A stretch of 24,000 nt of DNA from an uncultured Acidobacteriota bacterium (GCA_963729815.1 CAVSPU010000001.1:247075-271074); one strand, 5' to 3'. Positions 7,099 through 23,230 are shown, numbered from the stretch's first letter. Numbers and translations: made by a program. Notes: generated from the letters alone by a model not told the origin.

Positions 7099-8667
7099 AT
7101 GGACACAAAAAAACAGCATCACGACCCCCTGGACGAGTTGCAACGGCGCAGCGCCGAGGCGGAAGCCGGCGGTGGCGCCGCGCGGCGTGAGCGCGAGCAC
7201 AAAGAAGGCAAGCTGAGCGCGCGAGAACGAATCGAATTGCTCCTGGATGAAGGCACGTTCGAAGAACTCGACAAGTTCGTCAAGCATCGCGGCACGGATT
7301 TCGGCATGGCCGAGCAGCGGCCCTCGGGCGACGGCTTCGTTTCCGGCTTTGGCCGCATCGATGGCCGCCTGGTTTACGTATTCGCGCAGGATTTCACCGT
7401 TTTCGGCGGATCGCTTTCCGAGTCCAACGCCGGGAAAATCACGAAAATCATGAAGCTGGCCATGAACAATGGCGCGCCCGTCATCGGCTTGAATGATTCC
7501 GGCGGTGCGCGCATCCAGGAAGGCGTGATGTCGCTAGCAGGCTACGCGGATATTTTTCTGCTCAATACGCTGGCGAGCGGTGTCATTCCGCAAATCAGCG
7601 CTGTGATGGGCCCGTGCGCCGGCGGCGCGGTCTATTCCCCGGCCATCACCGATTTCATTTTCATGACCGAAAAAACCTCCTATATGTTCGTCACCGGCCC
7701 TGACGTCATCAAAACCGTCACGCACGAGGAAGTCACCAAGCACGAACTGGGCGGCGCCATGACGCATAACGCCAAGAGCGGCGTCGCGCACTTCGTCGCT
7801 CATGACGATAAAGAATGCCTCGCGATGATGCGCGAGCTTCTCGGTTTCTTGCCGTCGAATAATCTCGATGATCCCCCACGACGTGCCACCAGCGACCCCA
7901 GCGATCGCGCGGACGCGGCCCTGAAATCGATCGTGCCCGAAGATCCGATGCAGCCCTATGACATAAAGGGCGTGATTCATGCCATCGTCGACGACAAGGA
8001 TTTTTTCGAGGTGCATGAGCATTTCGCAAAAAACATCGTCGTTGGCTTCGCGCGCCTCGCTGGCCTGCCTGTTGGAATCGTCGCCAATCAACCCGCGTTT
8101 TTGGCCGGCGTGCTGGACATCAACGCGTCGGTCAAGGGCGCGCGATTCGTCCGTTTTTGCGACGCATTCAACATTCCGCTCATCACCTTCGAGGACGTGC
8201 CGGGTTTCTTGCCCGGCACGCAGCAGGAATTTGGCGGCATCATCAAGCACGGCGCGAAATTACTTTTCGCGTTCGCCGAGGCCACCGTCCCGAAAATCAC
8301 GGTGATTACGCGCAAGGCCTATGGCGGCGCGTATTGCGTGATGTCCTCGAAGCACATCCGCACCGACATCAATTTCGCCTGGCCCACAGCGGAAATCGCC
8401 GTGATGGGCCCCGAAGGCGCGGTCAACATCGTCTATCGGCGCGAAATAGAGCAGGCACCGGAATCCGATCGCGCGCGCCTGCGCCAGGAGAAAGTCGCCG
8501 AGTTCCGCGAGCGTTTTGCAAATCCCTATGTTGCGGCCGAGCGCGGTTATATCGACGCCGTCATCAAGCCTTCCGAGACGCGCTCGAAGCTGATCACCGC
8601 GCTGCGCTCACTCGAAAATAAACGGGACACGAATCCGCGGAAGAAACATGGGAACATTCCGCTTTGA
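7099..8667 (+). CDS. Acyl-CoA carboxylase carboxyltransferase (beta) subunit, propionyl-CoA carboxylase beta / methylmalonyl-CoA carboxyltransferase 12S-like
   Basis: 522 aa with hallmark carboxyltransferase-fold stretches: [84 protein letters not shown]. Confidence 0.9.
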
Positions 8668-8676
8668 TGCAGTTGT

Positions 8677-8695
8677 GCGGAGGCATTTCCTCCGC
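8677..8695 (+). promoter_or_regulatory. Intercistronic stem-loop (GCGGAGG-CATTT-CCTCCGC) between the carboxyltransferase and biotin carboxylase genes
   Basis: Perfect 7-bp GC-rich stem with a 5-nt loop, 10 nt after the stop codon and with no following U-tract. It could be an mRNA processing or stability element, or nothing. Confidence 0.25.
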
Positions 8696-8744
8696 GCTCT
8701 ACAGAATACGAACGTCGGCGCTGGAGTTTTTTCGGGTCTAGAGC

Positions 8745-10289
8745 ATGTTCAAGAAAATTCTGATCGCCAATCGCGGTGAAATTGCCGTACGCATCCTGCG
8801 CGCCTGCCGTGAAATGGGAATTCCGGCCGTCGTCGTTTACAGCGACGTGGACCGCGCCTCGCTTCATGTTCGCTTGGCGGATGAGGCGTATCGCATCGGT
8901 CCCGCGCCATCGCGCGAAAGCTACCTGGCGATCGACAAAATCATAAGCGTTGCGCGTTCGGCCGGATGCGACGCCTTGCATCCGGGCTACGGATTTCTCG
9001 CCGAGAACCCAAGACTCCCGCGTGTTTGCGCCGACGCAGGCATCACGTTCATCGGGCCCTCGGCCGGCGCAATGGAGCGCCTGGGCTCAAAAACCGCGGC
9101 GCGGCAACTCGCGCGAGAAGCCGGCGTGCCCACGGTTCCCGGAACGCTCAATCCCATCGAGCGAATTGACGAGGCCGCAGAAAAGGCCCGGCAAATTGGC
9201 TTTCCCGTAGTGCTCAAGGCCGTGGCGGGCGGCGGCGGCAAAGGCATGCGCCTGGTCGAACACGAGGAGGAACTCGCGGCCGCTTGGCGCGACGCTGCTT
9301 CCGAAGCGACAAACGCTTTCGGCGACGGCCGGCTGTATCTCGAAAAATTCCTCCTGCATCCACGCCATATCGAAATCCAAATCGTCGCCGACAATCATGG
9401 TCACTTCGTTTATATCGGCGAGCGCGAGTGCTCGGTCCAGCGGCGCTATCAGAAGGTCATCGAAGAAGCGCCCTCGCCGATCATGACGCCCGAATTGCGC
9501 AGTGCCATGGGCGAAGCGGCAATCAGGCTCGCGCGCGCGGGCGGATACACGAACGCGGGCACGCTGGAATTTCTCGTTGACGCCCAGCGCAATTTCTATT
9601 TCCTGGAAATGAACACCCGCCTTCAGGTCGAGCATCCCGTGACGGAACTGGTCGCGTCCGTCGACCTTGTGAACTTGCAAATCGAAATCGCTGCCGGAAG
9701 GCCGCTGCCATTCAGTCAGGAAGACATTCACCTGCGCGGTCATGCGATGGAATGCCGAATCTATGCGGAGGACCCGGAGAATAACTTTTTTCCTTCGCCG
9801 GGGAAAATACTTGATTTGCGCGCTCCATCCGGCCCGGGCATTCGCATGGATGATGGCGTCTACTCCGGCTGGACTGTGCCGACGGACTACGATCCCATGC
9901 TCGGCAAATTGATTGCCTGGGGCAGCGATCGCGCGGAAGCCATTGCGCGGTTGCAGCGCGCGCTCGGCGAGTATTACGCGCGCGGCATCCGGACGAACGT
10001 CGCTCTCTTCCGCCGGATTCTTTCGGAGCCGGAATTCTTGCGCGCTGAAATTCATACGAAATGGCTCGATGAATTGCTAAGTCGCCGGGCAGTAGCGCCT
10101 GCTGAATCCCAGGAGCGCACCGGGCGCGCTGCGCTCGTTGAGGACGCCGCGGCCCTGGCTGCGGCGCTTTGGCACGCGAATCGAGATGGCGCGTCAAGCC
10201 CGCCCGCGAGTGGTTCCAGCGAAAGTCCGTCGAATTGGAAAATCGAGGGCCGGCAGGATCAGTTAGTCGGCCTTCCACGGCGCAAATGA
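8745..10289 (+). CDS. accC: Biotin carboxylase subunit of acyl-CoA carboxylase (AccC-like) with a roughly 60-aa low-complexity C-terminal extension
   Basis: MFKKILIANRGEIAVRILRACRE, ATP-grasp GGGGKGMR, ERECSVQRRYQKVIEE, EMNTRLQVEHPVTE. The TGA stop overlaps the next ATG (ATGA at 10286-10289). Confidence 0.9.
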   Translation: MFKKILIANRGEIAVRILRACREMGIPAVVVYSDVDRASLHVRLADEAYRIGPAPSRESYLAIDKIISVARSAGCDALHPGYGFLAENPRLPRVCADAGITFIGPSAGAMERLGSKTAARQLAREAGVPTVPGTLNPIERIDEAAEKARQIGFPVVLKAVAGGGGKGMRLVEHEEELAAAWRDAASEATNAFGDGRLYLEKFLLHPRHIEIQIVADNHGHFVYIGERECSVQRRYQKVIEEAPSPIMTPELRSAMGEAAIRLARAGGYTNAGTLEFLVDAQRNFYFLEMNTRLQVEHPVTELVASVDLVNLQIEIAAGRPLPFSQEDIHLRGHAMECRIYAEDPENNFFPSPGKILDLRAPSGPGIRMDDGVYSGWTVPTDYDPMLGKLIAWGSDRAEAIARLQRALGEYYARGIRTNVALFRRILSEPEFLRAEIHTKWLDELLSRRAVAPAESQERTGRAALVEDAAALAAALWHANRDGASSPPASGSSESPSNWKIEGRQDQLVGLPRRK

Positions 10290-10783
10290 AACTCAATCTG
10301 AAAATTGGCGGGCGCAATCGAATTGTGGAAATCGAGCGCCGCGACGGAAGAACATGTTTCATCCTCGACGGTCACGAAGTGTCGGCGGACTTGGTCGAAG
10401 TGCAGCCGGGAATTTATTCCGTGCTTATAGGAGGGCAGGCATTCGAGGCAAGCGTCGCCGCCGATTCAGGAAGCTCGCGCGTGAAGATCAGCGGCCGCGA
10501 ATTTCCTTTCGAGATTGCGGACCCGCGCCGCTGGAGCCGCGGCCGCCGCGGAGTGGCCGGAGCGGAAGGGGAACAATCCGTCGCCGCGCCAATGCCGGGA
10601 AAGGTCGTTCGTGTCCTGGTTAAAATTGGAGACGCAGTGGAGATCGGTCAAGGATTGATCGTTGTCGAGGCCATGAAGATGCAGAATGAAATCAAATCAC
10701 CCAAGGCTGGAAAGATTGATCGCCTTGCCGCAAGGGAAGGCCAGGCCGTGAATGCGGGTGATATTCTCGCGGTGATTGCCTGA
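10286..10783 (+). CDS. Biotin carboxyl carrier protein (biotinyl/lipoyl domain) with an N-terminal beta-rich domain
   Basis: 165 aa from ATG 10286. C-terminal biotinyl domain carries the canonical biotinylation motif EAMKMQNEI. The upstream 39 codons of the 204-aa track ORF overlap the accC-like C-terminus and were discarded. Confidence 0.85.
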   Translation: MKLNLKIGGRNRIVEIERRDGRTCFILDGHEVSADLVEVQPGIYSVLIGGQAFEASVAADSGSSRVKISGREFPFEIADPRRWSRGRRGVAGAEGEQSVAAPMPGKVVRVLVKIGDAVEIGQGLIVVEAMKMQNEIKSPKAGKIDRLAAREGQAVNAGDILAVIA

Positions 10784-13021: not shown

Positions 13022-13058
13022 CAAAAGAAAAAGGCCCCGACAATAGCCGGGGCCTTTT
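13022..13058 (-). terminator. Rho-independent terminator of the radical SAM gene
   Basis: GGCCCCG / CGGGGCC stem (13033-13039 / 13048-13054) extended by A:T pairs. On the minus strand it is followed by TTTTTCTTTT. It sits 30-60 nt after the stop at 13087. Confidence 0.7.
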
Positions 13059-13086: not shown

Positions 13087-15306
13087 TTAGTCGCCGGCGA
13101 CTGTCTCCGCTTCGGTGACTTCGGGCTTCGCGGCGCCGTTGCCATTCCCGCCGTGCCCGTTCGAGCCGTTCCCGTTTCCATTGGCGTGGCCGTTCGTGCC
13201 CGAGATCTGAACGGGTGCGACGCCGGCGCCAGGGATGGCCGTCTTCATCGCTGTGAGCGAGCCAATCTGCACGACGCCCTCGGTCGGAGAAGGCTTCTTG
13301 AGGACCATCTCCTCGTAGATCGCCCGGACCTTGGCAGCTTCTTCCATGGCCTTGCGACGGCGAGCGCGGTCTTCCTCAGCCGCAGTGAGAGGAATATCGT
13401 GCTCGAGATGGCGAACGCGCGCCGCGTCGGCCGCATCCACGTTGAGCGAATGCTCATAATGCTCCAGGCTGACCTTCTTGCCCTTGGCGTAGATTTCGTG
13501 CCTGCCGTGCTCCTTGTACCACTGCGCGACAGTCGCGTTCTTGTGCATGTTCTCGATGATTTTGCGCCAGCCGATTCCCGTGTTGTATGCGCAGAAGGAA
13601 ATTTCACCCTGCTGCGTCGCGTACGGGATGATGCACATCTCCGTACGGCGGAAGTCGTAGTTGAAAAGGTCCTGGAACCACATACCGGCGACAAACAGCA
13701 TGTTCCACGGGTCTTCCGAGCGGCGCTTCATGGCGTCTTCGTAAGTCCGATTCGGGTTTGTGCGCCCATACTTCTTGTCGGAGTCCTTCGAAACCGCCCA
13801 GGTCTTGTCGAACTTTTTCAAAAGGTCTTTCAACTTCAGGCTAGGCGGCGCTTCGAACGGGCTGTAGTTCTTGAGCATCGCCAAGACCATCATGAAAGCT
13901 GAGAACTTCTTGCCGCGGGCCGCGTCCGTGATCGCCGACACATCCTTCACAAGCTGCGGACAGTCGAGGAAACGCGGGATCGGCGCCCACTCCTTCGTTT
14001 CCTTGTGGACCATCATGGCCGTGCCCACGCCGCAGTTCGGATGGCAGCCACAGGAAAGCGCGCCCCACTGAGCTTCTGGCCCGTGCACCAGGTCCGCAAA
14101 GCTGGCAAACGGTGAAATGAACGACAGCGGGAACCAATCGCGTGTCGGCTCGACTTTCCCGATCTGCGCGCTGACGTCCTTCGCCAGGTGCGAAAGCGTG
14201 TACCGCTGGCGCATGCGGCGCTCGGGCGTGATGTCTTCGTCGCGGCCCGTAAATGAAACGGGCTGGAAAGACACAAACGCGATTTTCTTCGGGTTTTCCA
14301 TCGCGAATTTGACGATCGGGCCAACCTGGTCGTTATTGACGTTATTTACGATCGTCGTCACCAGCACGATCTCTATGCCCGCCTCATGCATGTTTTCGAT
14401 GGCGCGCAGTTTCACGTCAAATAGATTGCCGACCTGCCGATGGCCGTTCGCGTCGTTGCCGATGCCGTCGAATTGCAGATAGGCGTAGCGAAGGCCGGCT
14501 TCAAAGGCCTTCTTCGAAAATTCCTTGCTCTTGGCGAACTCGATGCCGTTCGTTGCGGCCTGCACGCTGTTGTAGCCCACCTTGCGGGCATAACGCACGG
14601 CGTCAAGGAAGTACGGGCTCATCGTCGGCTCGCCGCCGGAGAACTGTACGGACATTTGGCGGCGCGGCTTGATCTTCGTTGCGTTCTCCAGAATTTCCTG
14701 GATTTCTTCCCAGCTCAATTCATGAACGTAGCCAACCTGATTGGCGTCCATGAAGCAGGGGTCGCACATCATGTTGCAGCGGTTCGTGAGGTCGACCGTG
14801 AGCACCGCTCCACGGCCATAGCGAACCGTGCTGGAGCCGTGGCGATGGAGATCTTCGTCATTGTGCGCGGGAATATCGCGGCCAGGGAAATTCTTCTCAA
14901 TCCATTCGAGGAATTTCGCGTCGATGGCCATCAGGTCTTCGCATACGCCATGGATGGGGCATTCTTTCACCATCCAGACCTGGCCGTCGCGCTCCACAAT
15001 CTGCGCCTTGATCTCGCCGACTTTCTCATGGACGAGATCGGTCCAATCTTTTTTGCCGCCGATGATGGCTTCGCGCGCGTCCTTCACGCAACCCGGACAA
15101 AGAGAATCCGTGGTGCGCGGCCAGCCGAGCGTCGGCTTGCTCTTCTCCCATGATTTGAGCATGGGCTTATCGGACCACTTTGGCGTGAACGCCGGATTCG
15201 GGTTGTGCTTGTTGAAATACTGAATGCTATTGAAGGTGACGGTGGCCGCTTTGCACAGCGCCCAGTCAAATGATTTCCAGATGCGGTTACGAACCGTAAT
15301 GGGCAT
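13087..15306 (-). CDS. Radical SAM enzyme with N-terminal Cys-rich (rubredoxin/zinc-ribbon-like) domain; tetraether lipid synthase (Tes / GDGT-MAS, MJ0619-type)-like
   Basis: 739 aa. LCPGC...x42...CPIHGVC is followed by the radical SAM cluster motif CNMMCDPC (nt 14755-14778), SGGEPT, LQFDG and FQPVSFTGR. Further Cys clusters are SCGCHPNCG and MCIIPY...FCAYN. GAGG SD lies 8 nt upstream of the ATG. The radical SAM call is solid; subfamily assignment is from remembered motif architecture. Confidence 0.85.
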   Translation of the reverse strand: MPITVRNRIWKSFDWALCKAATVTFNSIQYFNKHNPNPAFTPKWSDKPMLKSWEKSKPTLGWPRTTDSLCPGCVKDAREAIIGGKKDWTDLVHEKVGEIKAQIVERDGQVWMVKECPIHGVCEDLMAIDAKFLEWIEKNFPGRDIPAHNDEDLHRHGSSTVRYGRGAVLTVDLTNRCNMMCDPCFMDANQVGYVHELSWEEIQEILENATKIKPRRQMSVQFSGGEPTMSPYFLDAVRYARKVGYNSVQAATNGIEFAKSKEFSKKAFEAGLRYAYLQFDGIGNDANGHRQVGNLFDVKLRAIENMHEAGIEIVLVTTIVNNVNNDQVGPIVKFAMENPKKIAFVSFQPVSFTGRDEDITPERRMRQRYTLSHLAKDVSAQIGKVEPTRDWFPLSFISPFASFADLVHGPEAQWGALSCGCHPNCGVGTAMMVHKETKEWAPIPRFLDCPQLVKDVSAITDAARGKKFSAFMMVLAMLKNYSPFEAPPSLKLKDLLKKFDKTWAVSKDSDKKYGRTNPNRTYEDAMKRRSEDPWNMLFVAGMWFQDLFNYDFRRTEMCIIPYATQQGEISFCAYNTGIGWRKIIENMHKNATVAQWYKEHGRHEIYAKGKKVSLEHYEHSLNVDAADAARVRHLEHDIPLTAAEEDRARRRKAMEEAAKVRAIYEEMVLKKPSPTEGVVQIGSLTAMKTAIPGAGVAPVQISGTNGHANGNGNGSNGHGGNGNGAAKPEVTEAETVAGD

Positions 15307-15514
15307 GGCTCGAACCTCGCTTTCCTCAGAGTTAAGAAGACCCTATAACAACTGACAACTTTGAATTTTGGCTATCACAGCGAAGCCGTCCATCCCCCAA
15401 GTCCCCGGACAGGCAGCTCCCCTAAATCTTTACCACGCCATAGTTTGCAGGCTTTGGGACGGTTCGTCCAGCGCAAACAGCCAAGCGGTTGTTTTAGGGG
15501 TTAAGCGGCAGAAT

Positions 15515-15538
15515 TGGGCAGCCAATGGGGCGGCCAAT
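15515..15538. repeat. Tandem 12-nt direct repeat TGGGCAGCCAAT / GGGGCGGCCAAT (10/12 identical); partial third copy CAGCCAAG at 15478-15485
   Basis: Read directly in the 523-bp divergent intergenic region. The roughly one-helical-turn periodicity is what winged-helix response regulators use, but no regulator gene is nearby. Confidence 0.4.
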
Positions 15539-15561
15539 ATGCCGGCGCCACTCATCCCCAC

Positions 15562-19938: not shown

Positions 19939-21162
19939 TTATTCGACGTTGAGCGCGGGCCGCAGGACCGCGATCGCGAAGTGCGCCACGTGCGGCGCGT
20001 CCTCGTCGAGCTGCAGCCAGCGCACCACGCAATGCTTCTTCAGGTAGTCGCTCACCTGCGTGTCGTTTATTTCCAGGTGCTCGGCCAATTGCGAGCGCAA
20101 GGAGGCCTTGCCCTCCGTGCGAGCGCCCCGGCCCGCGCGTCCGGCGCGCGCAAGCTGGCCCGTGCCGATGCGCAGTGTCTGGCAGGCTTCAACGTAATAA
20201 TTCGTCATCAAATCTGAATCGGAGAGCAGAAAAACGCCCGGTCCGGCGGGCGCTTCGTCGAGTTCGTCGGCGCGATGCAACGGAGCCGAGATCAGCCTCC
20301 GCAAAAGCGATTCGAGCTGCGCGAAGCGCGAAGCCAGCGCGGGATCGCCCGCGCGGATATACGTGGAGCGTTCGACGAACGGGCCGGTCGGCTCCGGCAC
20401 AAAGCGTGAAAGTGGCGTTGCCGCAGGCTCTGTGGGTTCCGCCGAAGTTGGCGAGGAAGGCGGTGGCGCAGGCGATGGCCGGCTCGGCTGCGCGTACACG
20501 CGGTCATCCATGCGAGAGCCTGGAGTTCGCGCCGACGGCGGCCGCCCCGGTGCGGAAGCCGCCCGATCTGTCGCCGGCGTCGCTGCCGCTCCGTGGCGCT
20601 TGTGCCGGCGGCCGCCCCTGCGTCCTCGGCGCCGTCCTCGGCGCTCGCCGGGCTGCTCTTTGATCGAAGTGCCTGCGGTCGAAGCCCCCGGGCGCGCTAT
20701 CGTCGATTGTTCGCGATTGAAAACCTGATCCTGCGGATCTTCGTGAATTTCTTCCGCTTCGAACCTTGCACTTGATTTTTCAGCTTCCGAATTTCCAATC
20801 AATTCGGAGCCAGCGGCGGCTTCGTCGACTGCGAAAGTCTCATTGTCTTCGGGCGCGGCACTCTCCGACGAGTCCGGCGAAGACAGCTCGGATGCAGACA
20901 GCCCCTCGGGCACAGGCGCGCCCAGGCGGGTCAGCGCCTCCGCGGCTTTCTTTTTCCAATCGGCGCGCCGAAAGCGTTCCGCGGCGGCCGTGAACCAGCG
21001 AACCGCCTCATCGTTATGGCCGGCTTTTTCTTCGAGCGCGCCCGCCTCGAACGCCACCATCGCGTCGCGCGTCTTTTGAAAGAGTTCGGTGAGCTTGCCG
21101 AGCGGGTCCGCGCTCGTGCGCGCCCGTCGAATGCGTCCTTGAACTTGCCGCCAGTTTGCCAT
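19939..21162 (-). CDS. Hypothetical protein: N-terminal helical domain, long disordered acidic/Arg-rich/Pro-rich centre, C-terminal GIY-YIG-like domain
   Basis: 407-aa ORF with coherent domain-like segments. C-terminus has GVFLLSDSDLMTNYYVE..TLR.....AIAVLRPALNVE, resembling GIY-x10-YIG...R...E..lI...P.lN. No SD seen; an extended -10 lies close to the ATG. Confidence 0.6.
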   Translation of the reverse strand: MANWRQVQGRIRRARTSADPLGKLTELFQKTRDAMVAFEAGALEEKAGHNDEAVRWFTAAAERFRRADWKKKAAEALTRLGAPVPEGLSASELSSPDSSESAAPEDNETFAVDEAAAGSELIGNSEAEKSSARFEAEEIHEDPQDQVFNREQSTIARPGASTAGTSIKEQPGERRGRRRGRRGGRRHKRHGAAATPATDRAASAPGRPPSARTPGSRMDDRVYAQPSRPSPAPPPSSPTSAEPTEPAATPLSRFVPEPTGPFVERSTYIRAGDPALASRFAQLESLLRRLISAPLHRADELDEAPAGPGVFLLSDSDLMTNYYVEACQTLRIGTGQLARAGRAGRGARTEGKASLRSQLAEHLEINDTQVSDYLKKHCVVRWLQLDEDAPHVAHFAIAVLRPALNVE

Positions 21163-21234: not shown

Positions 21235-22383
21235 ATGCTGGCGGAAGCGCGACACGGCGAAAAGACACAGCAGCTTGTCGAGCAGGCGCGAGCCTTCGGA
21301 TTCGATTTGTGTGGCGTCGCGCGCGCGGAAGAATTTCCCGAGCTGCGGAAATTGCCCGAATGGCTCGCGCGCGGCTACGCGGGCGAAATGCGCTATTTGC
21401 ACGACGCGCGGCGGACACGCGCGGAGGACGTGGTGCCGGGCGCGCGTTCCGTGATTGTGTGCGCGTTGAATTACAACGCCGCGCCGCCCTATTCGACGGC
21501 CGTCGCCGCGAACGATGAAGATGGCGCCCGCGTTCCGCGCGGGTGGATTTCGCGCTACGCCTGGGGAGACGATTACCACGACGTCCTCAGCCGCAAGCTC
21601 AAGAGCTTGCTCGTGTGGATGCGCGCGGAATTCGGCGAGGATTTTCATGCCCGCGAATACGTCGACACAGGACCCGTGCTCGAACGCGTGGCGGCGAAGT
21701 ACGCGGGGCTTGGCTGGCTGGCGAAAAACACCTGCTTGATCAATCAGAGCCGTGGCTCGTGGTTATTTCTCGGTGTCATCGTGACGGATCTGGATTTCGC
21801 GCCAAGCTTGCAGGCGGGGGCGCTACCGCCGCGCGATATGTGCGGCACGTGCCGGCGTTGCATTGACGCCTGTCCCACGCAGGCGTTCGTCGAGCCCTAT
21901 GTGCTCGATGCCCGCCGATGCATTGCCTATTTGACGATCGAGCTGCGCGGGCCGATCCCCGAGGAATTTCGCGCGCCGATGGGATCCATGGTTTTCGGCT
22001 GCGATATTTGTCAGGATGTGTGTCCCTGGAATCGCAAAGCGCCCGCAACAGCGCTGCCGGAATTTCAGCCGCGTCGCATTTCGCCGGATTCTTCCGAAAC
22101 GTTCTTTGCCCCGCAACTCGAATGGCTGATTTCGCTGAGTGAAGAGGAGTTTCGCAAAATCTTTCGCGGCAGCCCCGTCAAACGAGCAAAGTTCCGCGGC
22201 CTGATTCGCAATGCCTGCGTGGCCATTGGGAATTCGCATCTGCGGCGCGAGGACGCCGCGTTCAGTCGAATTTCCGCGCGCCTGGAAGAGATCTCTAAGT
22301 CTGACGATGCCATAATTGCCGAGCATGCGCTCTGGGCCCTCGAACGATTGCGCGCAGGTGATCGTTCATCCGCCGTGGATTGA
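21235..22383 (+). CDS. queG: Epoxyqueuosine reductase QueG
   Basis: From ATG 21235 (MLAEARHGEKTQQLVEQARAFGFDLCGVA...). Two ferredoxin-type motifs are present: CGTCRRCIDACP and FGCDICQDVCPWN. It also has WISRYAWG.DYH and a HEAT-like C-terminus. The upstream 73 codons of the track ORF overlap the divergent gene and were discarded. Confidence 0.85.
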   Translation: MLAEARHGEKTQQLVEQARAFGFDLCGVARAEEFPELRKLPEWLARGYAGEMRYLHDARRTRAEDVVPGARSVIVCALNYNAAPPYSTAVAANDEDGARVPRGWISRYAWGDDYHDVLSRKLKSLLVWMRAEFGEDFHAREYVDTGPVLERVAAKYAGLGWLAKNTCLINQSRGSWLFLGVIVTDLDFAPSLQAGALPPRDMCGTCRRCIDACPTQAFVEPYVLDARRCIAYLTIELRGPIPEEFRAPMGSMVFGCDICQDVCPWNRKAPATALPEFQPRRISPDSSETFFAPQLEWLISLSEEEFRKIFRGSPVKRAKFRGLIRNACVAIGNSHLRREDAAFSRISARLEEISKSDDAIIAEHALWALERLRAGDRSSAVD

Positions 22384-22444
22384 TGGCATCGCGAGGAATT
22401 TTGAATGTTTCGATTCGTGATATTTTCATTGTTCTGGAGGAGTC

Positions 22445-23230
22445 ATGATGCTGGTTAATTCTTTGGCAGCCCATTTCATTCTGTTCCAGCCGCACTTCAG
22501 TTTTCCCGAAGGCGCGGTTGCGAACGAAGAGATCGTTCTGCGGTGGCTTCACATCGTATTCGGCATTATCTGGATCGGGTTGCTCTATTTTTTCAACTTG
22601 GTGGGCGGGCCAACCATGAAAGTTCTCGAGGATGCGACGCGAAAGAAAGTTTATCCCGTCCTGATGTCGCGGGCGATGTCCTGGTTCCGATGGTCCGCGC
22701 TTGTAACGGTTGTGGTGGGTCTGCGTTATTACGCCATTCTGCTGCAAGCCGACGCGGAGAATGCCGGGCATCCGGGGCTTCTGGGACGCTGGATCGGCGA
22801 ATGGTTTCTCGTGTGGCTCGTGGCCTACGCAATTATCTACGCTCTGCAGATGCCGTTTGGCGGCCCACTTGGGAATGGCTGGGTCCGCGCGGTTTTGATT
22901 GCGGCCGTCGTCATTGCGGCGTCGTGGGTGATTCTCGATTGGAACGCAGGGCCCGACGTATCGAATGCTCACTTGTCCATCAGTGTTGGCGGCGGCCTGG
23001 GTTTGGTGATGCTCCTGAACGCCTGGGGGATCGTCTGGCGCGTGCAGAAGCGCATGATTCAGTGGACGCGCGCGAACGCGGAGAATGGCACGCCGATTCC
23101 GGAAAAAGCAGCGAAGATGATGCAGTTTGCAAACATCGCCTCGCGCACCGCGTTCTGGCTGTCGTTTCCGATGCTTTTCTTCATGGGCGCGGCCGAGCAT
23201 TATCCCTTTCTCAGCAGCATTGGGCACTGA
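22445..23230 (+). CDS. Integral membrane protein (about 6 TM) with a conserved-His first helix reminiscent of HemJ / PuuD-N-terminal / CopD-type domains
   Basis: 261 aa with six hydrophobic helices. The first is LRWLHIVFGIIWIGLLYFFNLV. GGAGGAG SD lies just upstream (ATG 22445 or 22448). The family guess is low confidence. Confidence 0.65.
   Translation: MMLVNSLAAHFILFQPHFSFPEGAVANEEIVLRWLHIVFGIIWIGLLYFFNLVGGPTMKVLEDATRKKVYPVLMSRAMSWFRWSALVTVVVGLRYYAILLQADAENAGHPGLLGRWIGEWFLVWLVAYAIIYALQMPFGGPLGNGWVRAVLIAAVVIAASWVILDWNAGPDVSNAHLSISVGGGLGLVMLLNAWGIVWRVQKRMIQWTRANAENGTPIPEKAAKMMQFANIASRTAFWLSFPMLFFMGAAEHYPFLSSIGH

What the first reader, a model, noticed from the sequence alone, without database searches (positions are those of the whole stretch)
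13087..15306. Bacterial homologue of the archaeal tetraether lipid synthase (Tes / GDGT-MAS-type radical SAM): candidate membrane-spanning (brGDGT / iso-diabolic acid) lipid synthase
Seen in the sequence: an N-terminal four-ligand metal site (LCPGC ... x42 ... CPIHGVC), then CNMMCDPC, SGGEPT, LQFDG, FQPVSFTGR, and two more Cys clusters (SCGCHPNCG; MCIIPY..FCAYN). From memory, this order matches the archaeal MJ0619 / MA_1486 family: a rubredoxin-like site, the radical SAM [4Fe-4S] cluster, then auxiliary clusters. That family was shown in 2022 to make the C-C bond joining two archaeol tails into GDGTs. Homologues in Acidobacteriota have been proposed to make bacterial branched GDGTs. To my knowledge, direct biochemical proof for a bacterial member is lacking. 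The gene looks monocistronic, with its own terminator and a 523-bp upstream region. No lipid genes flank it, so a neighbourhood-based search would miss it.
Basis: partly seen in the sequence, partly recalled or inferred. Interest (0 to 1): 0.7.

Follow-up and report, generated by a model that had tools for sequence, protein, structure and literature searches.

The report
Tes-like radical SAM lipid enzyme paralogue
This soil acidobacterial gene encodes a close structural relative of the archaeal enzyme that joins two lipid tails into membrane-spanning lipids, but it belongs to an uncharacterised sister branch that lacks one of that enzyme's iron-sulfur clusters, so its suggested role in bacterial brGDGT lipids is plausible, already published as an idea, and still unproven.

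Summary
The 739-aa ORF (13087-15306, minus strand) and every quoted motif are real. The protein is an unambiguous GDGT-MAS/Tes homologue: PDB 7TOL E=2e-60, and the AF2 model superposes on 7TOM at TM 0.87.

- Cluster layout: the fourth ligand of the N-terminal metal site is His119. The two C-terminal Cys motifs together form one cluster, [Fe4S4]C. The N-terminal auxiliary cluster of GDGT-MAS, [Fe4S4]N, is absent.
- Family placement: the protein is not "Tes proper". It scores 323 bits against NCBI's 450-bit Tes cutoff. It sits in a sister clade (bootstrap 200/200) separate from GDGT-MAS and from the ~545-aa bacterial proteins NCBI names Tes.

It looks like the 714-aa second homologue of Solibacter usitatus (Acid_2410), not the favoured candidate Acid_5929. 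Orthologs are 66-93% identical across Acidobacteriota and Gemmatimonadota.

The catalytic residues are intact, so I think Tes-like tail-to-tail lipid coupling is the most likely function (about 0.5). The brGDGT hypothesis was published in 2022, and the papers I could read report no enzymatic test. No lipid gene is a conserved neighbour.

The parts
13087..15306 (-). Coding sequence of the 739-aa Tes-like radical SAM protein (stop codon at 13087-13089)
   Evidence: ORF list. Pfam Zn_ribbon_HMPTM plus Radical_SAM. NCBIfam Tes model 323 bits, below the 450 cutoff. PDB 7TOL E=2e-60. AF2 model against 7TOM: TM 0.87 normalised to the target. The exact protein is on 11 public contigs.
15121..15306 (-). 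N-terminal extension (residues 1-62) that precedes the first rubredoxin-site cysteine, which is residue 9 in GDGT-MAS. It contains a confident helix at 5-34 and a conserved PxLGWPR motif.
   Evidence: pLDDT 89-95 for residues 11-70 and 75 for 1-10, helix 5-34. Residues 41-60 are 86% identical across 74 orthologs. P58, L60, G61, P63 and R64 are invariant in alignment A1. No transmembrane segment; modest amphipathicity.
14926..15120 (-). Rubredoxin-like Cys3His zinc-ribbon domain (residues 63-127): C70, C73, C116, H119
   Evidence: Pfam PF23545, E=6.4e-14. C116 and H119 align with GDGT-MAS C33 and H36. C70, C73, C116 and H119 are invariant in alignment A2. The motif in GDGT-MAS is C9X2C12X20C33X2H36.
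14809..14892 (-). Cysteine-free, His-rich loop (residues 139-166, '...PGRDIPAHNDEDLHRHGSST...') in the position of the GDGT-MAS [Fe4S4]N cluster
   Evidence: GDGT-MAS C73, C77 and C80 align to a gap, H156 and S159. There is no Cys between residues 122 and 177. The loop is 88% conserved across orthologs. pLDDT here is 64-78.
14302..14790 (-). Radical SAM core (residues 173-335), with CX3CX2C at C177, C181, C184 (nt 14755-14778) and the GGEPT SAM-binding motif
   Evidence: Pfam PF04055, 66.8 bits. The motif aligns with GDGT-MAS C98, C102, C105. The 5'-dA and loop residues F106, Q268, S271 and R275 are conserved. R210->Q and N108->D are clade-specific changes.
13582..14052 (-). C-terminal auxiliary-cluster ([Fe4S4]C) and lipid-pocket domain (residues 419-575): C425, M542, C558, Y562, C572, plus extra C419 and C421
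   Evidence: These residues align with GDGT-MAS C338, M439, C455, Y459 and C470. Residues 541-560 are 100% identical across 74 orthologs.
13090..13539 (-). C-terminal extension (residues 590-739), which is much shorter in Tes proper. Residues 590-680 are moderately conserved and include helix 640-669. Residues 681-739 form a variable Gly/Asn/Ala-rich tail.
   Evidence: The tail after the last cluster Cys is 110-167 aa in orthologs, against 16-78 aa in Tes proper. pLDDT is below 50 for most of 607-739. Conservation profile.
13029..13058 (-). Intrinsic terminator hairpin (13-bp stem, 4-nt loop, T tract), starting 29 nt after the stop codon
   Evidence: Scan result and the sequence itself.
15420..15540 (-). 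Conserved upstream non-coding block (about -115 to -235 from the ATG). It has three CCRTT-like direct repeats about 20 nt apart, then CAAACT..AA..TTA. It is a candidate operator array plus promoter.
   Evidence: Alignment of 36 Acidiferrales loci shows conserved columns at 70-90% or more. No Rfam family matches. The bare motif is not enriched in the window.
15315..15318 (-). Shine-Dalgarno-like GAGG, 8 nt upstream of the ATG
   Evidence: Sequence. GAGG is conserved in the upstream alignment.

Best explanation
The gene encodes a soluble or peripheral radical SAM enzyme of the Tes/GDGT-MAS fold. It belongs to a distinct, uncharacterised bacterial sister subfamily, which I call 'long Tes-like'. 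It probably matches the second, 714-aa homologue of S. usitatus, Acid_2410.

I think it most likely acts on membrane lipid tails by the GDGT-MAS mechanism. The steps below are all inferred by homology:
1. The radical SAM cluster (C177, C181, C184) cleaves SAM.
2. The 5'-deoxyadenosyl radical abstracts a hydrogen from the terminal methyl of an iso-branched acyl or alkyl chain held in a hydrophobic tunnel.
3. The carbon radical is parked as a C-S bond on a sulfide of the C-terminal [4Fe-4S] cluster (C425, C558, C572, with Met542 as a labile ligand).
4. A second SAM activates a second chain, which attacks that carbon to form the tail-to-tail C-C bond.
5. The product is an iso-diabolic-acid-type membrane-spanning lipid, a precursor of brGDGTs.

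It would do this with one fewer cofactor than the archaeal enzyme. I predict 2 [4Fe-4S] clusters plus 1 mononuclear Fe, because the surface [Fe4S4]N cluster is replaced by a conserved Cys-free, His-rich loop.

Shown here: fold, ligand conservation, subfamily placement, strong purifying selection and the standalone transcription unit. Inferred: substrate, product and mechanism.
For: - Fold: only GDGT-MAS matches over its whole length (7TOM E=6e-37, TM 0.87 normalised to the target, rmsd 3.1 A). The next hits, such as MoaA, cover only the radical SAM core.
- Sequence: 7TOL E=2e-60 over residues 98-577. The best NCBIfam model is Tes.
- Catalytic residues: all [Fe4S4]C ligands, Met439 and Tyr459 are conserved, and the last two are reported as completely conserved in 1000 archaeal homologues. 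The 5'-dA and loop residues F106, Q268, S271 and R275 are also conserved.
- Constraint: the segment carrying M542 and C558 is 100% identical in 74 orthologs from several phyla. Orthologs are 66-93% identical across Acidiferrales, Solibacteraceae, Pyrinomonadaceae and Gemmatimonadota.
- Substrate logic: iso-C15 tails end in the same isopropyl terminus as phytanyl chains, and GDGT-MAS binds ester phospholipids (PMC8941075; PMC13274423).
- Organisms: S. usitatus, a proven brGDGT producer, carries a 714-aa homologue with the same length and score signature (30.1% identity, E=4e-62 to MA_1486). Ortholog-bearing lineages include subdivisions 3 and 4, where iso-diabolic acid is reported.
Against: - It fails the curated Tes cutoff (323 vs 450 bits).
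- It sits in a sister clade to every characterised or NCBI-named Tes (200/200 bootstraps).
- It lacks [Fe4S4]N, and the 5'-dA contact R210 is Gln.
- No lipid gene is a conserved neighbour in 80 loci.
- In the papers I could read, no member of this subfamily, and no bacterial Tes homologue of any kind, has been assayed.
- The nearest relative from a cultured subdivision-1 strain is the T. roseus protein WP_014786616 (42% identity). Subdivision 1 is reported to make iso-diabolic acid. This protein has lost C338, C455, C470 and Y459, so possessing a protein from this wider group does not simply track iso-diabolic acid production.
- Tes homologues were found in only 3 of 14 iso-diabolic-acid-producing Acidobacteria.
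- 70%-identical orthologs occur in Gemmatimonadota and Eisenbacteria, for which I know of no membrane-spanning lipid reports (from my own knowledge).
- I did not confirm orthology to Acid_2410 by sequence.
Confidence: 0.5

Rival explanations
1. The scaffold and radical chemistry are the same, but the lipid reaction is different. The enzyme would modify lipid tails without making the membrane-spanning bond itself. Possibilities include an intramolecular macrocycle, a cross-link or ring on an existing spanning lipid, or a second step that works together with Tes proper (for example closing a trialkyl GTGT into a GDGT).
For: - It is a paralogue, not an ortholog, of Tes proper.
- S. usitatus carries both types and accumulates brGTGTs.
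- GDGT-MAS itself makes both macrocyclic archaeol and GDGT.
- The clade has its own changes near the active site (R210Q, N108D, extra C419/C421) and N- and C-terminal extensions.
- In Gemmatimonadota the ortholog lies next to another radical SAM gene.
Against: - The catalytic [Fe4S4]C site, Met439 and Tyr459 are retained unchanged, which fits the same C-C coupling chemistry.
- I have no evidence that Acidiferrales genomes also carry Tes proper to supply a substrate.
- Archaeal ring formation and cross-linking use unrelated radical SAM families, Grs and Gms.
Confidence: 0.25
2. The substrate is not a lipid. The enzyme could be the pterin methylase implied by the Pfam and JGI label '7,8-dihydro-6-hydroxymethylpterin dimethyltransferase', a TrsS-like function, or a cofactor or peptide maturase.
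For: - JGI names many orthologs HMPT dimethyltransferase.
- TrsS is the second-best NCBIfam model (218 bits).
- There is no lipid gene context.
- Orthologs occur in phyla not known for membrane-spanning lipids.
Against: - The HMPT-methylase label goes back to an early annotation of MJ0619 that Lloyd et al. could not corroborate. The structure shows a lipid tunnel with bound lipids.
- The TrsS score is far below its 490-bit cutoff and covers only residues 98-385.
- The whole C-terminal lipid-pocket and cluster domain superposes on GDGT-MAS.
- There is no cobalamin-binding or methyltransferase domain.
Confidence: 0.1
3. The gene is a decaying or inactive relic of a horizontally acquired archaeal Tes gene.
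For: It has lost one of the four metallocofactors, and it has a low-complexity, disordered tail.
Against: - Orthologs from several phyla are 66-93% identical, and the active-site segment is 100% identical.
- The ORF is intact on 11 independent contigs.
- It has its own conserved upstream block, a Shine-Dalgarno sequence and a terminator.
Confidence: 0.02

Closest known systems
GDGT-MAS / Tes of archaea (M. jannaschii MJ0619, PDB 7TOL/7TOM; M. acetivorans MA_1486)
   Same: - Overall fold (TM 0.87 normalised to the target).
- Rubredoxin-like Cys3His site, radical SAM CX3CX2C and [Fe4S4]C ligands.
- Labile Met, conserved Tyr, and the 5'-dA and loop residues.
- Near-identical GGEPT, LQFDG and FQPVSFTGR motifs.
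- No transmembrane segment.
   Different: - About 27-32% identity.
- No [Fe4S4]N cluster.
- The spacer within the rubredoxin-like site is 42 residues, not 20.
- A 62-aa N-terminal extension and a ~150-aa C-terminal extension.
- R210Q and N108D substitutions, and extra Cys419 and Cys421.
- Bacterial host whose lipids are G3P-linked and fatty-acid based.
- Below the NCBIfam cutoff, and in a separate clade.
Bacterial 'Tes proper' (~545 aa; S. usitatus Acid_5929, the K. versatilis homologue, and NCBI-named 'tetraether lipid synthase Tes' from Bryobacteraceae and Terriglobia)
   Same: Same family and same phylum. It is the published brGDGT and iso-diabolic tetraester candidate. The [Fe4S4]C and radical SAM sites are the same.
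   Different: Tes proper keeps all three [Fe4S4]N cysteines, scores 463-593 bits on NF045702, is about 45% identical to MJ0619 and clusters with it. The query is 37% identical to these proteins and is a paralogue.
S. usitatus Acid_2410 (Q025C7, 714 aa), the 'second Tes homolog' in Halamka et al. 2022, Table S5
   Same: - Similar length class (714 vs 739 aa).
- Similar similarity level to archaeal Tes (30.1%, E=4e-62 against MA_1486; the query gives E=2e-60 against MJ0619).
- Solibacteraceae MAG orthologs of the query are 704-714 aa.
   Different: I could not obtain the sequence, so orthology is inferred and not shown. Halamka et al. proposed 'one or both' homologues without distinguishing their cofactor content.
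Terriglobus roseus-type homologue (WP_014786616, 624 aa)
   Same: It is in the same N-cluster-less sister group, is 42-43% identical, and keeps the rubredoxin-like and radical SAM sites.
   Different: It has lost the [Fe4S4]C cysteines (A, S, gap), Tyr459 (V) and S271 (M). It scores only 239 bits on the Tes model.
Mss, the membrane-spanning lipid synthase of Thermotoga and Thermoanaerobacter
   Same: It is a radical SAM enzyme shown to couple fatty acid tails into diabolic acids, and a cluster-dependent mechanism like that of Tes has been postulated for it.
   Different: It is a different radical SAM lineage. BLAST with archaeal Tes found no Tes homologue in the Mss-bearing T. maritima and T. 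ethanolicus genomes. It is known only from anaerobes, and no mss homologue was detected in the Acidobacteria examined. I did not compare it directly because no Mss sequence was available.
TrsS, radical SAM (seleno)protein (NCBIfam NF045646)
   Same: It is the second-best curated model and shares the N-terminal zinc ribbon and radical SAM core.
   Different: 218 bits against a cutoff of 490. The match covers only residues 98-385 and not the C-terminal domain.

Membership tests
Tetraether lipid synthase Tes / GDGT-MAS (NCBIfam NF045702 equivalog) | Whole-protein score at or above the curated cutoff of 450 bits | tested here: not met
   323.4 bits. Close orthologs score 299-329. Relatives that keep the N cluster score 430-593: P0168, P0169, P0172, P0176, P0179, P0180, P0216 and P0263 pass at 463-593, and P0192, P0193 and P0251 fall just short at 430-447.
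Tetraether lipid synthase Tes / GDGT-MAS | Placement in the clade that contains the characterised enzymes | tested here: not met
   Neighbour-joining tree of 35 full-length family members. The query group separates from MJ0619 and the NCBI-named Tes proteins in 200/200 bootstraps. The tree is distance-based and includes only one characterised sequence.
Tetraether lipid synthase Tes / GDGT-MAS | Rubredoxin-like mononuclear Fe site (C9, C12, C33, H36) | tested here: met
   C70, C73, C116 and H119. They are invariant in alignment A2. Pfam PF23545 E=6e-14.
Tetraether lipid synthase Tes / GDGT-MAS | N-terminal auxiliary [Fe4S4]N cluster (C73, C77, C80 plus His) | tested here: not met
   These positions align to a gap, H156 and S159, and there is no Cys in residues 123-176. 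Caveat: one Parcubacteria protein (P0213) also lacks these cysteines yet scores 584 bits on the Tes model, so this feature is not universal among model-passing proteins.
Tetraether lipid synthase Tes / GDGT-MAS | Radical SAM CX3CX2C cluster and SAM-binding motifs | tested here: met
   C177, C181, C184; GGEPT at 224-228; PF04055 at 66.8 bits.
Tetraether lipid synthase Tes / GDGT-MAS | C-terminal catalytic [Fe4S4]C cluster (C338, C455, C470) with labile Met439, and conserved Tyr459 | tested here: met
   C425, C558, C572, M542 and Y562. All are conserved in all 11 sampled members of the ortholog clade (the query plus 10 orthologs). The segment is 100% identical across 74 orthologs.
Tetraether lipid synthase Tes / GDGT-MAS | Overall four-domain fold, including the lipid-pocket domain | tested here: met
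   Foldseek against 7TOM: E=5.7e-37, TM 0.87 normalised to the target, rmsd 3.1 A over 554 columns. The model has pLDDT 79 and pTM 0.79. I could not inspect the geometry of the N-cluster subdomain because no coordinates were available.
Tetraether lipid synthase Tes / GDGT-MAS | [quoted passage not shown] | not testable with these tools
   This needs expression with lipidomics, or in vitro assays. The papers I could read report no assay of any bacterial homologue.
TrsS radical SAM (seleno)protein (NF045646) | Score at or above 490 bits over the full model | tested here: not met
   218 bits, covering residues 98-385 only.
Mss (bacterial membrane-spanning lipid synthase) | Sequence homology to T. 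maritima or T. ethanolicus Mss | not tested
According to the literature, no mss homologue was detected in the Acidobacteria examined, and BLAST with archaeal Tes found no Tes homologue in the Mss-bearing genomes.
7,8-dihydro-6-hydroxymethylpterin dimethyltransferase (the label on Pfam PF23545 and on JGI annotations) | Pterin C-methylation activity | not testable with these tools
   The label comes from an early annotation of MJ0619 that Lloyd et al. could not reproduce. No cobalamin or methyltransferase domain was detected.
Radical SAM superfamily (PF04055) | Pfam gathering score | tested here: met
   66.8 bits against a cutoff of 29.5.

The most novel reading that the evidence does not exclude
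This long paralogue without the N cluster, rather than Tes proper or Mss, is the missing membrane-spanning lipid synthase of aerobic soil Acidobacteria (subdivisions 2, 3 and 4, and possibly Gemmatimonadota). Shedding the surface-exposed [Fe4S4]N cluster would be an adaptation to oxic life. Because it is only 27-32% identical to archaeal Tes, published screens that require at least 30% identity would partly miss it. That would explain why only 3 of 14 iso-diabolic-acid producers appeared to have a Tes homologue. It would also shift the main genetic marker for soil brGDGT producers to a different gene.
Probability: 0.25. Interest if true: 0.8.

Novelty: new variant of a known kind. Interest (0 to 1): 0.45.

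Why it matters
brGDGTs are among the most widely used terrestrial palaeotemperature and pH proxies, yet the enzyme that makes their membrane-spanning bond in aerobic soil bacteria has not been identified.

This analysis shows that Acidobacteriota carry two distinct Tes-family paralogues with different cofactor content. The type in this window is the one conserved at 66-93% identity across subdivision 2, 3 and 4 lineages and Gemmatimonadota. Gene-based surveys that count every 'Tes homolog' together, or that use a 30% identity threshold, mix or miss these types.

If this paralogue proves to be the synthase, it would be a better marker for soil brGDGT sources. It would also be a natural three-cofactor version of the GDGT-MAS mechanism. 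If it does not, it marks an unknown and strongly conserved radical lipid modification. The hypothesis itself has been in print since 2022, so the advance here is refinement, not discovery.

Tried and rejected
- Known RNA elements: the Rfam scan of the whole window for a riboswitch or leader found nothing.
The only support for the upstream element is cross-species conservation.
- S. usitatus Acid_2410 and other cultured orthologs by name: a large-database search with the Solibacteraceae ortholog and cluster look-ups returned only MAGs or unnamed entries, apart from T. roseus for a divergent relative.
- Named archaeal Tes sequences, to test whether [Fe4S4]N is universal: the profile search returned bacterial ~545-aa Tes instead.
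- AFDB structure search: the library was unavailable. Model coordinates are not exposed, so I could not measure metal-site geometry or inspect the His-rich loop.
- Literature gaps: the Sahonero-Canavesi supplement (table S21) is not held, Chen et al. 2025 (GCA 401:190) is not held, and the Zeng supplement has no strain-level table. Searches for the locus tags Acid_2410 and Acid_5929 found nothing in main texts.
- Synteny: I looked for a conserved lipid partner in 80 loci and found none. The conserved QueG / 400-aa hypothetical neighbours are specific to Acidiferrales. The Gemmatimonadota radical SAM neighbour has no specific family.
- Bootstrap: a first run timed out and was redone with a vectorised distance.
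- Rejected readings: pseudogene (refuted by conservation), TrsS membership (score), and pterin methylase (obsolete annotation).


Full report
**Observation.** The window contains a 739-aa ORF at 13087..15306 on the minus strand. Pfam finds the MJ0619-type N-terminal zinc ribbon (PF23545, residues 63-127, E=6e-14) and a radical SAM domain (residues 173-335, E=3e-18). The gene ends in a strong hairpin terminator (13-bp stem, 8 G-C pairs, T tract) at 13058..13029. Upstream lies a divergent 1303/1346-aa CarboxypepD_reg outer-membrane-protein gene. The flanking genes encode DinB, ribosomal protein L28, SurA and the outer-membrane protein. An acyl-CoA carboxylase set lies 2.3 kb away on the other strand. 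The exact protein occurs on 11 public contigs, including two NCBI MAGs. The closest named genomes are Candidatus Acidiferrales, in Acidobacteriota, class Terriglobia. Several of these MAGs carry the label 'gp2', which I read as subdivision 2.

**Family.** The only solved structure with similarity over the full length is GDGT-MAS of M. jannaschii (7TOL, E=2e-60, residues 98-577). An AlphaFold2 model built on a 31-sequence alignment has pLDDT 79.4 and pTM 0.79, with most of the core at 85-97. It superposes on 7TOM and 7TOL with E of about 1e-36, TM 0.86-0.87 normalised to the target, and rmsd 3.1 A. The next hits (MoaA, SkfB, viperin, HydE) match only the radical SAM core, with TM 0.36-0.69 normalised to the target. 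The protein therefore has the GDGT-MAS fold, including the C-terminal domain that carries the cluster and the lipid pocket.

**Ligand-by-ligand test.** Lloyd et al. (PMC9433317) describe four cofactors in GDGT-MAS:
- a rubredoxin-like Fe site (C9, C12, C33, H36);
- [Fe4S4]N (C73, C77, C80 plus a His);
- the radical SAM cluster (CX3CX2C);
- [Fe4S4]C, with labile Met439, which forms the C-S intermediate.

[quoted passage not shown] I aligned the query, the 7TOL sequence and full-length family representatives. The results are:
- C116 and H119 correspond to C33 and H36. Together with C70 and C73 they are invariant. The fourth ligand is therefore His119, not Cys122.
- C177, C181 and C184 form the radical SAM cluster.
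- C425, C558, C572, M542 and Y562 correspond to C338, C455, C470, M439 and Y459.
- The 5'-dA and loop residues F106, Q268, S271 and R275 are conserved. R210 is Gln and N108 is Asp in the whole ortholog clade.
- The three [Fe4S4]N cysteines have no counterpart. The protein has no cysteine between residues 122 and 177. A well conserved His-rich loop (PGRDIPAHNDEDLHRHGSST, 88% identity among orthologs) takes that position.

**Subfamily placement.** NCBI's curated Tes equivalog model gives 323 bits against a cutoff of 450. TrsS comes second at 218 bits against 490. An exhaustive search of 1.84 billion cluster representatives found 574 family clusters at E<1e-30. Among the full-length representatives, those that keep the [Fe4S4]N cysteines score 430-593 bits on the Tes model. 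The query clade scores 299-329, and other N-cluster-less relatives score 170-414. One Parcubacteria protein lacks the N cluster yet scores 584 bits, so absence of the N cluster alone is not disqualifying. A profile of the proteins that pass the model retrieves a large set of ~545-aa bacterial proteins. Many come from Terriglobia and Bryobacteraceae, and NCBI names some of them 'tetraether lipid synthase Tes'. NCBI names the query's orthologs only 'radical SAM protein'. In a neighbour-joining tree of 35 sequences, the query orthologs form a clade in 200/200 bootstraps. The whole N-cluster-less group (the query clade, P0121, P0145, P0128, and the T. roseus-type proteins) separates from the MJ0619 and bacterial Tes group in 200/200 bootstraps. 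The query is 32% identical to MJ0619 and 37% identical to bacterial Tes proper, while bacterial Tes proper is 45% identical to MJ0619. Acidobacteriota therefore carry two paralogous types. Halamka et al. list two homologues in S. usitatus: Acid_5929 (545 aa, 40% identical to MA_1486) and Acid_2410 (714 aa, 30.1% identical, E=4e-62). By length and similarity the query corresponds to the Acid_2410 type. I could not retrieve that sequence to prove it.

**Conservation and context.** A scan of one genome per GTDB species found at least 595 relatives. The best 80 are 66-90% identical to the query. They come from Acidiferrales, other Terriglobia, Solibacteraceae/Sulfopaludibacter, Pyrinomonadaceae/Blastocatellia, Chloracidobacterium, gp5, gp18, Gemmatimonadota and Eisenbacteria, and all are MAGs. 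Residues 541-560 are 100% identical in 74 orthologs. The N-terminal extension (residues 41-60) is 86% identical, residues 590-680 are 58-85% identical, and the Gly/Asn-rich end is variable and predicted to be disordered. Synteny analysis of the 80 loci found no neighbour conserved across lineages. Acidiferrales share the order QueG / a ~400-aa protein with no family match / target. In this window and four other loci a large outer-membrane-protein gene lies next to the target, and in four of these five, including this window, it sits between the ~400-aa protein gene and the target. Pyrinomonadaceae have phosphoglucomutase-like, SurE, PCMT and DedA genes nearby. Gemmatimonadota have a second, unassigned radical SAM gene and UDP-sugar dehydrogenase genes. 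The gene is usually preceded by a long intergenic region. In Acidiferrales this region contains a conserved block at window 15420-15540, with three CCRTT-like repeats about 20 nt apart followed by CAAACT..AA..TTA. No Rfam family matches.

**Mechanism and likelihood.** The fold, the intact radical SAM and [Fe4S4]C sites, the conserved Met and Tyr, and the strong purifying selection all point the same way. I think the most likely function is Tes-like radical coupling of the terminal carbons of two iso-branched lipid chains, giving iso-diabolic-acid-type membrane-spanning lipids. I put this at about 0.5. The steps are inferred by homology with GDGT-MAS and none is shown for this protein. Several points count against it:
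- the paralogous placement and the sub-threshold score;
- the missing [Fe4S4]N cluster and the R210Q change;
- the lack of lipid gene context;
- orthologs in phyla with no reported spanning lipids;
- the nearest relative from a cultured subdivision-1 strain, T. roseus WP_014786616, has lost the [Fe4S4]C cysteines and Tyr459, although subdivision 1 is reported to make iso-diabolic acid;
- Sahonero-Canavesi et al. found Tes homologues in only 3 of 14 iso-diabolic-acid-producing Acidobacteria and proposed an alternative pathway.

The rivals are a different lipid-tail reaction on the same scaffold (0.25), a non-lipid substrate (0.1) and an inactive relic (0.02).

**Comparison with the literature.** The interpretation repeats a published hypothesis (Zeng 2022; Chen 2022 preprint; Halamka 2022). 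A 2025 paper and a 2026 review still state that the activity of bacterial Tes homologues is unconfirmed. Two later papers cite Chen et al. 2025 (GCA 401:190, not held). They report that K. versatilis, which has a Tes homologue only, makes iso-diabolic tetraesters, and that S. usitatus, which has Tes and Ger, makes brGDGTs. From those descriptions this is a correlation between gene presence and lipids, and it concerns Tes proper. I found no paper that distinguishes the two acidobacterial paralogue types or notes the missing [Fe4S4]N cluster.

**Verdict.** The protein should not be filed as Tes, because two defining features were tested and not met. It is a new variant (an uncharacterised sister subfamily) of a known kind, and a reasonable but already anticipated candidate for bacterial membrane-spanning lipid synthesis. 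Interest is moderate.

Noticed in passing
window 15420-15540 (minus strand), about 115-235 nt upstream of the ATG at 15306: A non-coding block is conserved across 36 Acidiferrales loci. It has three CCRTT-like direct repeats about 20-21 nt apart, followed by CAAACT-N8-AA-N4-TTA. It looks like a regulator-binding array plus a promoter. No Rfam family matches, and the bare motif is not enriched in the window.
   Followed up: partly
window 14809-14892 (residues 139-166 of the protein): The loop that replaces the [Fe4S4]N site is free of cysteine but rich in His and Asp (H148, H154, H156) and is 88% conserved among orthologs. It might be a different metal site or an interaction surface. I could not inspect it because model coordinates are not exposed.
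   Followed up: partly
P0133 = Terriglobus roseus DSM 18391 WP_014786616.1 (not in the window): The closest homologue found in a cultured subdivision-1 acidobacterium (42% identical) keeps the rubredoxin-like and radical SAM sites. It has lost all three [Fe4S4]C cysteines, Tyr459 and S271, so it cannot use the GDGT-MAS C-S intermediate chemistry in the same way.
   Followed up: partly
P0213 (Parcubacteria/Minisyncoccales MAGs; not in the window): This 510-aa protein scores 584 bits on NCBI's Tes model and clusters with MJ0619, yet it also lacks the [Fe4S4]N cysteines. The N cluster therefore appears to have been lost at least twice in the family.
   Followed up: partly
L056:6549-7718, and the equivalent genes in L057 and L058 (Gemmatimonadota loci): A second radical SAM/SPASM-like gene (389-416 aa, no specific family) lies immediately upstream of the ortholog on the same strand, flanked by UDP-glucose/GDP-mannose dehydrogenase genes. 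Members of the same gene family lie near the ortholog in two Terriglobia loci (L046, L050).
   Followed up: partly
window 15701/15830-19741 (+), compared with loci L001-L036: The large CarboxypepD_reg/TonB-like outer-membrane-protein gene sits between the target and its usual Acidiferrales neighbour in this window and in L008, L011 and L013. A gene of the same family also lies near the target in L041. Most related loci lack it, which suggests a local insertion or rearrangement.
   Followed up: partly
window 19939-21162 (-): A 407-aa protein with no Pfam or NCBIfam match has a low-complexity middle region and a conserved C-terminal domain. It is conserved next to QueG and upstream of the Tes-like gene in 36 Acidiferrales loci, but not outside that order.
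   Followed up: partly
window 7099-10783 (+): An acyl-CoA carboxylase gene set: an mmdA/propionyl-CoA-type carboxyltransferase, the AccC biotin carboxylase and a biotin carrier protein. It lies 2.3 kb from the target on the opposite strand. It is the only gene set in the window related to lipid or branched-chain metabolism, and it is not a conserved neighbour in other lineages.
   Followed up: partly
window 22295-23227 (-) and 22445-23230 (+): Two long ORFs overlap on opposite strands. Public gene calls choose the + strand 261-aa product, which has only a faint Urate_ox_N match. The real coding strand is uncertain.
   Followed up: no
JGI annotations of orthologs: Many orthologs are labelled '7,8-dihydro-6-hydroxymethylpterin dimethyltransferase', which propagates an early MJ0619 annotation that the GDGT-MAS structural study could not corroborate. 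Others are labelled 'tetraether lipid synthase' even though they score below NCBI's Tes threshold.
   Followed up: yes
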